Shown here piece after piece: positions 3,501-8,006 of a stretch of 64,000 nt of DNA. Position 1 is the first letter of the stretch. Each line of letters starts with the position of its first letter. The position numbers were made by a program. Origin of the DNA: Harriotta raleighana (taxonomy: Eukaryota); contig JBNZDD010013545.1 of NCBI GenBank assembly GCA_050575255.1, forward strand, positions 38,905 through 102,904, given 5' to 3'.

Positions 3501-6500
3501 GGGTCATTTTCAATCCACGACTGTTTGTGTGGGGGACGCTGTTGTGCGCAATTGGCTGCCGCACTTCTCCCACAAATCTCCAGTCAATTCACTGTGAAGC
3601 CCTTTGAGACGTCGATAAGATGTGAAAAGCGCTATATCAAATGCATGGATTATTATTATTATTATTATTATTATGACTGAAGACCCGGTTAAAAAGGAAG
3701 CACTTAAGATAGGCCTTGGAAGGAGGTGAGAAAGGGAGTGAGTTGGGGGTGTTTTGTGGATGGAGTTGCAGTGGATGTGGGCAGAACAGCTGGAAGCCCG
3801 ACCGACAAGAGCTCTGAGACATCCAACTGGCGTGAAAGGCGAGGTACTAAATGTGAGGATTACTATTGCGATTGAAGGCAAATAGGCTGAAAGTTAAACT
3901 AGAAGAGTGAACGAGCCCATAGCCTCCCAGACTTATTGTCCCCAGAGTACATTGACCTCCGTTGTAATATCGTTCCGTTCAAAGTTTACAATGGCAGATT
4001 GGATATAGACATGGGTGTGTCGCTTACACACCTTTCCCAGTAAATAACAGGGTTAAAAGGACACAGAGTGAAGGAATGGAAGGAAACGGCAGGAAATCGC
4101 AAAATTTAACCAGACAAATATTACAGAGAAAGACACTTAACCACAGAGCTCGGAGAGAGCAAGAGAGAGAGAGACACACATTAGTTTCTTTACCTTCTCA
4201 AACGATGCAAAAGGGTTGGCGTTGCTAATGTGGAAAACACTCCCAATGAAAGGCAGCGTCCAGGGTCCCGGGGGATAGTTGTCACACTTTCGCCTCCTCT
4301 TCATGAAGTCAAAGACCAGAGCGAAGACTGTGCAGAACATCGCCAGCAAAGTGACTTTGCCAAAAGCTCGGCTCAAGAACTGAGGGACATTCAAGAACTC
4401 CATGTTTCCCAATGAGACTATCTGTGCCTAACTGAGCAACCGAGGAGAGATCAAAACTCAATGCGGGCGGGACTTCCTGGGATTAGAACAGGTCTGGGAG
4501 AGATTCTGGAAACTGTAGTTTTTAATGCTGATCTATGCTTTGCGCATCTTTATCATGTACCAAAACATGGTCACCCAAGCTACGGCTGTTTGTGGGACAC
4601 TTTGAGACGCTTTGAGACGTCTCAACTGCGTGATAAGGCGCTGTGTCAAATGCAAGGATTATTATTATTAGATAACTCCAATCTTATTCCCGTCAACAAG
4701 TTGCATTTGCACTGAATTTAGATAAACCGCGTCTCGCGATATATCAGCCTGTGACTGAGCCGTGAGCAATCTCACCTAAAGTTGGGGTTTGAGCCCCTAT
4801 TTTGGGGGAGAGAGAGGGGGGCTGTCAGCTGTTAGAGCATTTGCCTTGCGAGCGAGAGACCTGGGTTCGATTCCCAGCAGGGCAAAAACCTTGGGCAAGT
4901 TTCCCTACTCCACAAGCCTGATAATAATCCCTTAAGAAAGAAAAACGAATAATAATTTGGTCACTCAATCCACCACTGTTTGTGGGGGACACCGCTGTGC
5001 GCAATTGGCTGCCACGTTTCGCCCACAAATATACAATCAATTCACCGTACGGTACACTGCGTGAATAAGATGTCCCCGAAGACGTGAAAACTTAAAAATG
5101 CAAGGATTATTCATGAATCTGCTATTGTATGCTCGTCTGGGGAGGGGGGGGGGATGGGGGAATGGGGGAGGGAGGAGGGAAATATTTGCATCACAGCCTC
5201 AATTTTAATGAGTTCAAATTCCAAATGCAGTTCAAATCAATCACCTGAATGCAGCGGCTTCAACCAAAGCCAATTTGCTTTCTACCCGGCAGCGACCAGT
5301 GGATGTGAGAGGAGAGGACAGAGGCAATGCACGTCTCCTCCATCACCAGGAGATGGCGACTAAACGCTTCCTATCATTCACAGGACACAGCGAGACGTGC
5401 TACGACCAGCGCCTGTCCGATCACATCATCGAGACGTCGCAAGGCGCTTTCACAGCGACACCCTGTAGGGTCTAAAACACTATACGACAGTGGAAACAGC
5501 CATGGATGGGTGGGTGTGGGGGGGGGGGTCCCAGAATTTATTTCAGGGATTGATGGCCAGGCCCGCGAGAGAGAAAAACTCCTTTCTCTTTACTCTAACG
5601 AGCACTGCGGGCTCGTTAAAGTCCTCCCGAACATAGAGACGGGACCTAGTCTACGTGATTCCATGTCCCGATGTGTGTCGGAGGAGTGGGATTGGTGGTG
5701 GGGGGGGGGTTTTGACACCCACACGTTGCTTGGTACACACTGCCACAGGCAAACCAGATGTCGGCGTCTAGTCCAGTCAAGTAAGAACATGAACCAAAAC
5801 ATCTGCAAAGGGAAACAAGTGCATTTCGACAAGAAAGGACGCTAAAACCACTCTTTAATTTTGCTTACAAAATTAATAATAGTACAAAAATGGTTCCACA
5901 GAAAACGAGAGGAGGTGGGGGGAGAAGGGGGGCAGGGGCTGGGATGGTGGGAGGGGAACGGGGGGGGCGGGGAGAAAGNGAGGGGGGGGGGGGGGGGGGG
6001 GGGGGGGAGAAAGAGAGGGGGTTGTCTTTTCCCCCCAACACCCCCATCCCCACCACCAACACCTCCCTCCCACCCACCCCTTTTCTCTGCCCGCTTCTGC
6101 ACAAAACTGCCGCATCGTGTCGGGAAAGTCCGGGTCATGTTTTATTCCCACTCCCTCCCCCCACATCCCTCACCATCCTCTCCGCCCCCCCCCCCCACCC
6201 CCCCACCCCACTGTCCTCCTCCTATCACTTCCCCAAACCACCTCTTCCACCACCGTCACCTCCTCCCCACCGCGACTCCCTCAATACTCCTCCTGTTCGT
6301 GTTCCTCCGGACGCCACTCGCCGGGTTGAGCGAAGGTGTCGCCCACACTGTACAGCACCTTCTTCACCCGCTGGGCAAGCTCGTGGCCGTCCGCCTGGTT
6401 CCGTTGGCAGATGACCTCGATGCCCCTCAACTTCCCAAAGTAAAAGTCCCTCTCCTTCTCCAGCTCCTCCAGCGTCGCCTTCAGCGTCTTCACCTCCTCC

Positions 6501-8006
6501 CCCAGCTCGGCCGCCTGCGTGTCCCCGTTGCCCGCCCTGCTCGGCCGCTCCCGGTTCCCACCCCCCGCCCCCCGCAGCCGGACCCCCGTCTTGGTGGGGC
6601 CCGGAGTCGCGGCCTTGGGGATGGCTGCAACGCCTCCGCCCTGCGACCTGGACAGGTGGGTCCCGGACGAGGTGGACTTGATCCTGTCCGGGACGGCGAG
6701 ACCGCCCACTCCACGGCCCCCATCGGTGCTCAGAGTCTTCTTGGGCTTGTTGAAGACAGCGGCGTCCTGGTGACGGTTGAGTCGGTTATCGGCGGTCGTC
6801 GCCGTCGTCGGAAGAGGAGGAGGAGGAGGAGGAGGCCCCACCGGCGGAGGCTCGCACTCCCTCCGACTCTTGTAGTTGGCATCGAAGAACCTCTTGAACC
6901 ACTGGACAAACTCAAAGTTGTCCTGGAACTTGCCCTTGACCAGCCTGTCCACCGGGATGATCTTCTCCACTCGGGTCTTCTCGAAAGCCAACTGCAGCAC
7001 CTTGAAGTTGTGGATGAACTCGTGCTCCAGCCTGGCCTGGAACTTGACCTTCTTGAGGCCGACGCAACCAGGGAACAACATGTCCATCAGCTGACAGTAG
7101 GCGACGCCCGAGCAAAGCTGCTCCGTCTTGGCGTAAGCCAACCCCAGAGACTCGTTGACCCAAGCCAGCATCTCGTGCCGGCTGAGATTGTCATTAGTAG
7201 CCGAGGGGCAGTGGACATTAACTGCCATCGCCTCGGGCCTGGCCTTTTCAGTTTCCTTTAAGCCCCAGGCTGGTCACCGCTCTGCTCGCTTTTATAGACA
7301 AATTTATAAATTATTATATATATATATATATTTATATACAGTATATACTGCCCTCGTTATTTTACTCGTCAGCCTCTTTCTTCCCTTGTCCCCCTCTCTC
7401 CCACCCCTTTCACCCCAGCTGTTTAAGATGCTAAATCCGTGATGTAGGTGCAATGTCACAATAGTTTCTCCCCGACCTCCCCCCACCACCTCCCCCCCAC
7501 CCCATGTGTGATGTACTCGCTCACTCACTTGCTTTCAATGTATTGGTTTAAATCAAAGCAACCCGTCAACTAGCGTTCCAATGCACGTGGAATCTGTATC
7601 GCTTTTGTTTCAAGGGATCTTCTTCCAAAGGAAAATAATCAGTTTTGGGGGTTTGCCAGAGCCAATCGAGGGGATGGATTTCCGTGTGTGTTAGACACAC
7701 ACACACACACACACACACACACGGCTGATCGCGGTCATGGGTTTCCGCGGGTGTCAGACACACACACACACGCGCGCGGCTGATCACAGTGATGGGTTTT
7801 CACATGTATCAGACACACACACACACACACACACACGGATGGTCACCGTGACAGGTTTCCGCGGGTGTCAGACACACAAACACACGGCNACACACACACA
7901 CACACACACACACACACGGCTGATCGCGGTCATGGGTTTCCGCGGGTGTCAGACACACACACACACACGCGCGGCTGATCACAGTGATGGGTTTTCACAT
8001 GTATCA

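What the first reader, a model, noticed from the sequence alone, without database searches (positions are those of the whole stretch)
6141..7296. Intact intronless EB/MAPRE gene with its own TATA box and poly(A) signal: candidate functional retrogene or extra EB paralogue
Seen: a 315-aa uninterrupted ORF with CH domain, EBH domain and EEY tail; TATAAAAG about 60 nt upstream; strong Kozak; AATAAA about 135 nt downstream; no residual poly(A) tract or target-site duplication. Known: vertebrate MAPRE1/2/3 are multi-exon genes, and none is, to my knowledge, linked to TAF15/MMP28. The folded domains are conserved while the linker is replaced by poly-Pro/Gly-rich sequence, and diagnostic residues look mixed (FEFVQ and EEY as in EB1; IHNFKVLQ as in EB3). 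Inference: an old retrocopy kept under purifying selection, possibly tissue-restricted (for example testis) and lineage-specific.
Basis: partly seen in the sequence, partly recalled or inferred. Interest (0 to 1): 0.7.

Follow-up and report, generated by a model that had tools for sequence, protein, structure and literature searches.

The report
Intronless extra EB1-like gene, chimaera lineage
This is an intact single-exon gene for a microtubule-tip (EB family) protein; it is this fish's copy of a second EB1-like gene that all cartilaginous fishes seem to carry, and here it has lost its introns.

Summary
Window 6281-7228 (minus strand) is one 315-aa ORF with a CH domain, an EB1/EBH domain and an EEY tail. 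TATAAAAG lies 68 nt before the ATG and AATAAA 134 nt after the stop. There is no poly(A) tract and no target-site duplication.

The gene is intact, lacks coding introns and looks constrained. It has a full-length orthologue in Callorhinchus milii, on a scaffold of the same length (88,297 bp) as the one holding RHBDD2 and MMP28.

It is not a lineage-specific retrocopy of MAPRE1. In trees it sits with strong support beside an elasmobranch-only "MAPRE1-like" clade, and AU tests reject descent from true MAPRE1. The elasmobranch members have splice isoforms, so they are multi-exon. In four species they lie on contigs of the same length as those holding MMP28 or RHBDD2.

Best reading: this is the holocephalan orthologue of a chondrichthyan-wide fourth EB paralogue. 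It lost all coding introns through an RNA intermediate, probably at or near the ancestral locus, and fixed the long splice form. A classic retrocopy with loss of the parent gene is not excluded.

This is an ordinary gene family member. Interest is modest.

The parts
7289..7296 (-). TATAAAAG, candidate TATA box. It would place a start site near 7260-7265 (inferred).
   Evidence: the only match in the window; it sits next to a TA-rich microsatellite, so the evidence is moderate.
6281..7228 (-). Single-exon coding sequence of the EB1-like protein (315 codons plus a TGA stop at 6281-6283).
   Evidence: tblastn of 7 EB proteins aligns end to end in one frame.
6878..7183 (-). Calponin-homology (CH) domain, residues 16-117; the microtubule-binding part.
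   Evidence: Pfam PF00307, E 1.4e-13. Residues 1-128 align to the human EB1 CH domain in PDB 2r8u. Coordinates.
6527..6868 (-). Pro/Gly/Arg-rich linker, residues 121-234. It includes a poly-Pro run (6809-6850) and a holocephalan-specific insert (6758-6808).
   Evidence: Predicted without secondary structure in a low-confidence model.
6605..6694 (-). Residues 179-208. This segment is homologous to an alternatively spliced linker cassette of elasmobranch long isoforms. Here it is fused in frame. It is absent from the Callorhinchus protein model P0001.
   Evidence: Alignment A1, coordinates.
6347..6463 (-). EB-homology (EBH) domain core, residues 256-294, with the FYF motif at 6437-6445. It is preceded by a predicted long helix (residues 234-276).
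   Evidence: Pfam PF03271, E 4.1e-15. Aligns to PDB EB1 C-terminal chains. Helix (low confidence).
6284..6292 (-). C-terminal EEY tail.
6141..6146 (-). AATAAA, candidate poly(A) signal 134 nt after the stop.
   Evidence: This is weak evidence: there are 102 copies in the window, and the next one on this strand is at 5537-5542.

Best explanation
The locus is a working protein-coding gene for an EB-family microtubule plus-end-binding protein. By family knowledge, the CH domain binds growing microtubule ends. The coiled coil and EBH domain make a dimer that recruits SxIP-motif partners, and the EEY tail binds CAP-Gly proteins.

In evolutionary terms it is the holocephalan orthologue of a second EB1-like paralogue shared by cartilaginous fishes (called clade C here; NCBI labels its members 'MAPRE1-like'). 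Clade C arose by DNA-level duplication of an intron-containing EB1-type gene. This happened either before the split of cartilaginous and bony vertebrates or early in chondrichthyans.

In the holocephalan line the gene lost every coding intron at once, through a spliced RNA copied back into DNA. Most likely the copy replaced the gene at or close to its ancestral place beside RHBDD2, TAF15 and MMP28. That event fixed the long splice form, with all linker cassettes included.

Shown: the ORF, its domains, its clade, the Callorhinchus orthologue on a scaffold of matching length, and matching contig lengths in elasmobranchs. Inferred: that the elasmobranch genes contain introns (from their isoforms), the RNA-mediated route, replacement in place, expression, and the biochemical activity.
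For: (1) Domains and tail. PDB EB1 E 1e-84 and EB3 E 3.7e-80.

(2) Orthologue: P0001 of Callorhinchus milii matches full length with the same N- and C-termini.

(3) Clade C. It has 15 of 50 rows at SH-aLRT 99 and 12 of 43 rows at 100/97. The same 15 rows, all chondrichthyan, form it in a 108-row FastTree at support 98. Shared derived EBH states are E244, V246, L253, E255, Q278, V288, K290, V291 and S294.

(4) Not from true MAPRE1: AU p = 1.6e-4 (with clade A) and 3.3e-5 (with Callorhinchus MAPRE1).

(5) Elasmobranch clade C genes are multi-exon. The isoform pairs of Heterodontus (P0008/P0019), Stegostoma (P0056/P0068) and Cetorhinus (P0016/P0046) share a contig length and differ only by linker blocks. 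The window ORF carries the homologues of all the blocks in one frame.

In Callorhinchus the EB-like protein, RHBDD2 and MMP28 all give 88,297 bp. Clade C EB matches RHBDD2 in Pristis (39,010,861) and Heptranchias (41,663,488). It matches MMP28 in Stegostoma (50,098,721) and Heterodontus (65,175,702). That is 4 of the 5 elasmobranch species with both values. As a control, true MAPRE1 matches in 0 of 3 species (Stegostoma, S. torazame, Mobula).

(7) Constraint.

(8) No second clade C protein of Callorhinchus appears among the 120 listed hits.
Against: Contig identity is inferred from equal contig lengths only. Elasmobranch linkage is at chromosome scale, not gene order. The four matching species are not independent observations.

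The fifth species, S. torazame, gives no match: the clade C protein is on a 51,198-bp scaffold, partial MMP28 is on a 35,505-bp scaffold, and RHBDD2 is on 229.6 Mb of another assembly. This is uninformative rather than contrary.

No genomic DNA of any relative could be read, so the exon structure of the Callorhinchus and elasmobranch genes was not seen directly. dN/dS could not be computed.

A CH-domain-only tree places the holocephalan pair inside true MAPRE1 (SH-aLRT 81). Site-by-site reading explains this as shared ancestral states.

The window lineage evolves faster than Callorhinchus: 18 unique changes against 5, p = 0.007. Its amino-acid make-up is also shifted. These could mean relaxed constraint. 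There are no expression data.
Confidence: 0.6

Rival explanations
1. Classic retrogene. A spliced long-isoform mRNA of the holocephalan clade C parent was inserted elsewhere, happening to land on the same chromosome or close by. It acquired a promoter, and the multi-exon parent was later lost.
For: The coding sequence is intronless and matches one fully spliced isoform with all cassettes. It has a compact gene layout with its own TATA-like box and a near AATAAA. No other clade C protein of Callorhinchus is among the 120 listed hits.
Against: There is no poly(A) remnant or target-site duplication, although both would have decayed with age. Clade C EB and MMP28/RHBDD2 share a contig length in 4 of 5 elasmobranch species with both values; a random insertion would rarely reproduce this. 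No relic exons of a parent lie in the 64 kb, which is neutral evidence.
Confidence: 0.3
2. Lineage-specific retrocopy of the true MAPRE1 gene.
For: A CH-domain-only tree groups the holocephalan pair with chondrichthyan MAPRE1 (SH-aLRT 81). [13 protein letters not shown] and FEFVQ are shared with that clade.
Against: Full-length trees place it in clade C. AU tests reject a clade with MAPRE1 (p = 1.6e-4 and 3.3e-5). The shared CH states are ancestral, being also present in bony EB1 and EB3. The pair lacks I24, which is derived in clades A and B, and lacks R84 of clade A.
Confidence: 0.02
3. Non-functional processed pseudogene whose frame is open by chance in GC-rich DNA.
For: Other frames of this GC-rich stretch are also long and open, for example a 471-codon stop-free antisense frame. 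The window lineage evolves faster. There is no expression evidence.
Against: The match to EB proteins runs full length in one frame in two species. All 8 indels against Callorhinchus are confined to the linker or tail. The folded domains are more conserved than the linker (p = 0.014). The window residue is the same at 97 columns that are invariant in the 18-row alignment. GC3 is 0.83 against GC2 0.44.
Confidence: 0.04
4. Chimeric gene: a CH-domain half from MAPRE1 joined to an EBH half from clade C, by gene conversion or template switching.
For: The domain trees disagree.
Against: No derived MAPRE1 state is present in the CH half. The disagreement comes from derived changes in elasmobranch clade C (F7, S10, L64, A92, M97, L108, R112).
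Confidence: 0.03

Closest known systems
Callorhinchus milii 'microtubule-associated protein RP/EB family member 1-like' (P0001, 282 aa, NCBI automatic annotation)
   Same: Orthologue. It has the same termini and domains, 81% identity over aligned columns, and sits on an 88,297-bp scaffold, the same length as the one reported for RHBDD2 and MMP28.
   Different: It lacks the 30-aa cassette-like segment (window residues 179-208) and keeps the ARQGQ motif that the window protein lost. Its exon structure could not be read.
Elasmobranch 'MAPRE1-like' genes (clade C), for example Rhincodon P0006, Heterodontus P0008, Stegostoma P0056
   Same: Sister group. They share derived EBH residues and homologous linker cassettes, and lie on contigs of the same length as those holding MMP28 or RHBDD2.
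   Different: They are multi-exon with alternative linker cassettes. Their CH domains carry their own derived changes. Identity to the window protein is 52-54%.
Vertebrate EB1 (MAPRE1), for example human EB1 in PDB 2r8u
   Same: CH domain, coiled coil with EBH, FYF motif and EEY tail; E 1e-84.
   Different: It is a separate clade. The human gene lies in the ASXL1/DNMT3B/KIF3B region (passage of PMC3721406), not beside TAF15/MMP28. Its linker is shorter.
Retrogenes and RNA-mediated intron loss (general class)
   Same: All coding introns are absent at once, and the sequence equals one spliced isoform.
   Different: There is no poly(A) tail or target-site duplication, no living parent gene was seen, and the locus appears to be conserved.

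Membership tests
EB / MAPRE family of plus-end-binding proteins | N-terminal calponin-homology domain | tested here: met
   PF00307, 51.4 bits against a cut-off of 26. Residues 1-128 align to the human EB1 CH domain.
EB / MAPRE family of plus-end-binding proteins | C-terminal EB-homology domain after a coiled coil | tested here: met
   PF03271, 56.2 bits against a cut-off of 27. [18 protein letters not shown] is invariant in the 18-row alignment. The long helix at residues 234-276 comes only from a low-confidence model.
EB / MAPRE family of plus-end-binding proteins | Acidic tail ending in EEY/F | tested here: met
   The protein ends in HEQEEY.
EB / MAPRE family of plus-end-binding proteins | Tracks growing microtubule ends; dimerises; binds SxIP and CAP-Gly partners | not testable with these tools
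   Inferred from family knowledge (recalled). No complex job was run.
Chondrichthyan 'MAPRE1-like' paralogue (clade C) | Falls inside the clade in full-length trees | tested here: met
   Support 99, 100/97, 100/99 and 98.
Chondrichthyan 'MAPRE1-like' paralogue (clade C) | Shared derived residues | tested here: met
   Nine EBH positions. None was found in the CH domain.
Chondrichthyan 'MAPRE1-like' paralogue (clade C) | Linked to MMP28/RHBDD2 | tested here: met
   Within 54 kb in the window. The 88-kb scaffold length matches in Callorhinchus. Gene order in elasmobranchs was not seen.
Processed retrogene | Lacks the parent's introns | tested here: met
   One ORF covers the whole protein. The parent-type introns are inferred from elasmobranch isoforms.
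Processed retrogene | Poly(A) remnant and target-site duplications | tested here: not met
   Absence is expected for an old copy, so this is weak evidence.
Processed retrogene | Sits at a locus other than the parent's, with the parent elsewhere | tested here: inconclusive
Microsynteny is not testable here.

The most novel reading that the evidence does not exclude
Cartilaginous fishes keep a fourth ancient EB gene: an EB1-type paralogue that predates the split from bony vertebrates and was lost in the latter. In chimaeras this gene was rewritten in place from its own spliced long-isoform mRNA. That removed every coding intron and abolished the alternative splicing of the linker that sharks and rays still use. 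It would be a natural experiment on what EB linker isoforms are for.
Probability: 0.3. Interest if true: 0.5.

Novelty: new member of a known kind. Interest (0 to 1): 0.3.

Why it matters
EB proteins are the core hub of the microtubule plus-end network, and textbooks give vertebrates three of them. A fourth, EB1-like paralogue held across cartilaginous fishes is annotated automatically. I found no paper on it in six searches.

The holocephalan copy shows wholesale loss of coding introns, apparently without a change of neighbourhood. That is uncommon in vertebrates and bears on how RNA-mediated intron loss happens. It also freezes one linker isoform, which offers a handle on the role of EB linker splicing.

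None of this overturns anything. It is a modest comparative-genomics point, and it warns against calling every intronless family member a new-locus retrogene.

Tried and rejected
Accessions and cluster contents stayed unchecked.
- An AU test on 43 rows under the mixture model did not finish in two calls. It was replaced by 24 rows under LG+G4.
- A structure prediction from the 18-row alignment was too poor to use: mean pLDDT 45.2, pTM 0.26. No fold search was run on it.
- Search for relic exons of a lost parent: tblastn of 7 EB proteins against the window found only the gene itself. One weak match at 17774-18007 (+) had E 0.007, was on the opposite strand and was lost under default settings. 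It was rejected as noise.
- Target-site duplication: only G/C-rich low-complexity matches were found. The 29-nt pair at 6182-6210 and 7476-7504 is rejected because the first copy lies upstream of AATAAA.
- A chimeric or gene-conversion origin was rejected by site analysis.
- Clade C starting as a retrogene with introns regained in elasmobranchs was rejected. The alternatively spliced linker cassettes are homologous in place and sequence to those of true MAPRE1 isoforms (P0003 vs P0009, P0018 vs P0012).
- A chondrichthyan-only duplication (clades A and C together) was not rejected (p-AU 0.066), so the age of clade C stays open.
So dN/dS, exon structures and gene order in relatives were not checked.
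- EB2 and chondrichthyan EB3 were not in the hit list, so they are missing from the trees.
- No complex prediction was run.
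Full report
**1. What is there**

On the minus strand, window 6281-7228 is a single ATG-to-TGA frame of 315 codons. An in-frame TGA lies 45 nt upstream of the ATG (the stop-to-stop frame begins at 7273). Pfam finds a CH domain (residues 16-117, E 1.4e-13) and the EB1 C-terminal motif (residues 256-294, E 4.1e-15), both above the curated cut-offs. 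The best solved relatives are human EB1 (2r8u, E 1e-84) and EB3 (7sj9, E 3.7e-80). The alignment covers the CH domain and the C-terminal domain through to the final EEY.

The putative signals are as follows.
- TATAAAAG at 7289-7296 is the only copy in the window. About 2.7 per window are expected by chance, so only its place counts. It sits next to a TA microsatellite.
- The start context is GCG ATG G.
- AATAAA at 6141-6146 lies 134 nt after the stop. The window holds 102 such hexamers, so this is weak evidence.
- There is no A-rich tract and no credible target-site duplication.

The coding sequence has 63% GC in flanks of about 46-50%. Codon-position GC is 0.61/0.44/0.83. None of the window's N runs lies inside the gene.

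**2. Surroundings**

The neighbours were identified exon by exon.
- A cytochrome P450 (CYP2-like) gene lies on the minus strand at 566-850 and 4137-4427. Pfam matches p450 on the first piece; the second is read by eye as its first exon.
- An RHBDD2 gene lies on the minus strand, with an exon at 23795-24475 that is 88% identical to Callorhinchus RHBDD2.
- A TAF15/FUS-type gene lies on the plus strand at 34935-35270 and 42259-42564. The Pfam RRM match is weak; the rest is read by eye.
- MMP28 lies on the plus strand at 59617-59928 and 60537-60785, 98% identical to Callorhinchus MMP28.

The EB gene is intergenic and on the same strand as CYP2 and RHBDD2. No contig here is taken for human.

**3. 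Relatives**

Of 3205 proteins with E <= 0.001, the 120 best are listed. The top hit is Callorhinchus milii 'RP/EB family member 1-like' (P0001, 282 aa). It is 69% identical overall and has the same first 25 and last 7 residues. No 100% match appears, so the window's own protein is not in that collection. The source is therefore most likely a holocephalan other than C. milii (inference).

Trees give one picture.
- Quick tree, 50 rows: the window protein pairs with P0001 (support 100) inside a 15-row clade (support 99).
- Careful tree, 43 rows, mixture model: the clade of 12 has support 100/97.
- FastTree of 108 rows (107 named hits plus the window; 8 unnamed and 5 placental-mammal rows left out): the same 15 rows form the clade at support 98.

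I call this clade C. It holds the two holocephalan proteins and 'MAPRE1-like' proteins of 10 elasmobranch species, and nothing else. Its inner order follows the species tree: holocephalans, then rays and sharks. True MAPRE1 of chondrichthyans (clade A, including Callorhinchus P0012/P0018) and MAPRE1 of bony vertebrates (clade B) are separate.

Holding the holocephalan pair with clade A, or with Callorhinchus MAPRE1, is rejected (AU p = 1.6e-4 and 3.3e-5; 24 rows, LG+G4). These groups were named after the tree had been seen.

**4. A conflict and its resolution**

A CH-only tree puts the pair inside clade A (SH-aLRT 81). A C-terminal tree puts it in clade C (support 98). I read the sites one by one.
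- In the CH domain, the states shared with clade A (Q64, P92, V97, V108, K112) also occur in bony EB1 and EB3, so they are ancestral.
- The elasmobranch clade C proteins carry the derived states there.
- The pair lacks I24 (derived in clades A and B) and R84 of clade A.
- In the EBH domain the pair shares nine derived states with elasmobranch clade C.

So there is no sign of a chimera or of gene conversion.

**5. Introns**

The window gene has none in its coding sequence. EB proteins align end to end in one frame.

The elasmobranch clade C genes are multi-exon by inference. The same kind of cassette occurs in true MAPRE1 isoforms (P0003 vs P0009; P0018 vs P0012). The introns are therefore ancestral, and clade C arose by DNA-level duplication, not by retroposition.

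The window ORF carries homologues of all the cassettes fused in frame. For example, residues 179-208 (6605-6694) match the 'SGT.L.RS' cassette. The Callorhinchus model lacks just this segment. Whether that is a deletion or a splice could not be seen.

**6. Linkage**

No eukaryotic DNA collection was available, so I used the contig lengths given with the protein hits as a proxy for contig identity.
- In Callorhinchus, the EB-like protein, RHBDD2 and MMP28 all report 88,297 bp.
- Clade C EB matches RHBDD2 in Pristis (39,010,861) and Heptranchias (41,663,488).
- Clade C EB matches MMP28 in Stegostoma (50,098,721) and Heterodontus (65,175,702).
- That is 4 of the 5 elasmobranch species with both values.
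- The fifth, S. torazame, has only small scaffolds or different assemblies (51,198; 35,505; 229,598,228), so it is uninformative.
- Five further clade C species had no RHBDD2 or MMP28 hit listed. Mobula, Narcine and Pristiophorus had no clade C hit listed.
- As a control, true MAPRE1 shares the contig length in 0 of 3 species (Stegostoma, S. torazame, Mobula).

These chromosome-scale contigs are a few tens of Mb long. A retrocopy landing at random would rarely restore this linkage. The four species are not independent, and gene order was not seen. In humans, MAPRE1, MAPRE2 and MAPRE3 lie in ASXL/DNMT3/KIF3/DTN paralogous regions (passage of PMC3721406). None of those families is in this window.

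**7. Constraint**

Against Callorhinchus, identity is 105/120 in the CH domain, 65/81 in the EBH domain plus tail, and 51/72 in the aligned linker. Folded domains against linker give Fisher p = 0.014. All 8 indels (1-30 aa) lie in the linker or tail. The window protein has the shared residue at the 97 columns that are invariant in the 18-row alignment. Together with the codon-position GC pattern, this argues for a coding gene under selection.

Against this, the window lineage has 18 unique replacements to Callorhinchus's 5 (p = 0.007). It has lost the near-invariant ARQGQ motif after the CH domain. Its amino-acid make-up is shifted. Many of the changes go towards GC-rich codons, which I take as a GC-biased drive (inference). 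dN/dS could not be computed.

**8. Age of clade C**

The best trees put clade C outside clades A and B together (86/78; 95/91). That would make it older than the split of cartilaginous and bony vertebrates. But a chondrichthyan-only duplication is not rejected (p-AU 0.066). EB2, chondrichthyan EB3 and jawless-fish EBs were not sampled.

**9. Reading**

The gene most likely encodes a normal EB-type tip tracker. The mechanism comes from family knowledge, which is recalled and not tested here.

Its odd feature is its structure. It is the holocephalan orthologue of a chondrichthyan-wide fourth EB paralogue that lost all coding introns through a spliced RNA intermediate. My split is about 0.55-0.6 for replacement at or near the ancestral locus and about 0.3 for a classic retrocopy whose parent was lost.

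**10. Literature**

Six searches found no paper on this paralogue or on a MAPRE retrogene in cartilaginous fishes:
- 'MAPRE1' with 'retrogene';
- 'MAPRE1' with 'Callorhinchus';
- 'MAPRE1', 'MAPRE2', 'MAPRE3' with 'ohnolog';
- the EB1/EB3/whole-genome-duplication terms;
- 'MAPRE1-like';
- 'MAPRE1', 'MAPRE2', 'MAPRE3' with 'phylogen'.

I saw only the search listings, except for the passages of PMC3721406. The 'retrogene', 'elephant shark', 'intronless' search was seen as a listing only. Supplementary files were not consulted. The library does not cover most subscription journals.

**11. Verdict**

This is a new member of a known kind, and the interest is modest (0.3).

Noticed in passing
window 47423-49719 and 49730-52026: A 2,297-bp stretch is repeated exactly (0 mismatches) directly after the 10-N gap at 49720-49729, inside the TAF15-like gene region. 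This is most likely a gap-flanking assembly duplicate rather than biology.
   Followed up: yes
window 24763-25808, minus-strand frames 24375-26176: A long degenerate tandem repeat (periods of about 43-100 nt) lies just downstream of the RHBDD2-like first exon. It is open in three frames as Pro/Thr/His/Ser-rich text. Whether it is intronic or coding was not resolved.
   Followed up: partly
window 7665-8280: A minisatellite with a 124-nt unit containing CA runs (2.6 copies, 96% matches) starts about 440 nt upstream of the EB start codon.
   Followed up: partly
window, at least 10 places, e.g. 1182-1454, 3321-3680, 13236-13613, 17966-18370, 22976-23263, 54508-54864, 58234-58584: A recurrent interspersed element gives similar ORF pieces ('[25 protein letters not shown]'-like) on both strands. 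It is probably a SINE/LINE-type repeat of this genome and was not classified.
   Followed up: no
window 17774-18007 (+): Weak similarity (24% over 86 aa, E 0.007 in a permissive tblastn) to the linker and EBH part of Callorhinchus P0001. It is on the opposite strand and is not found with default settings. It is treated as noise, but a very old decayed EB fragment is not excluded.
   Followed up: partly
window 5980-6010, with an N at 5979: A long homopolymer G/C tract lies about 270 nt downstream of the EB stop codon, next to a single N. G-rich low-complexity DNA fills the putative 3' flank.
   Followed up: no
hit P0177 (Polypterus senegalus 'MMP28 protein, partial', 1583 aa): This is a fused gene model carrying matrixin, CH, zf-RanBP and GAS2 domains. 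It seems to merge MMP28 with neighbouring TAF15-like and GAS2L-like genes. Its CH domain is probably not an EB-type one (domain list only).
   Followed up: no
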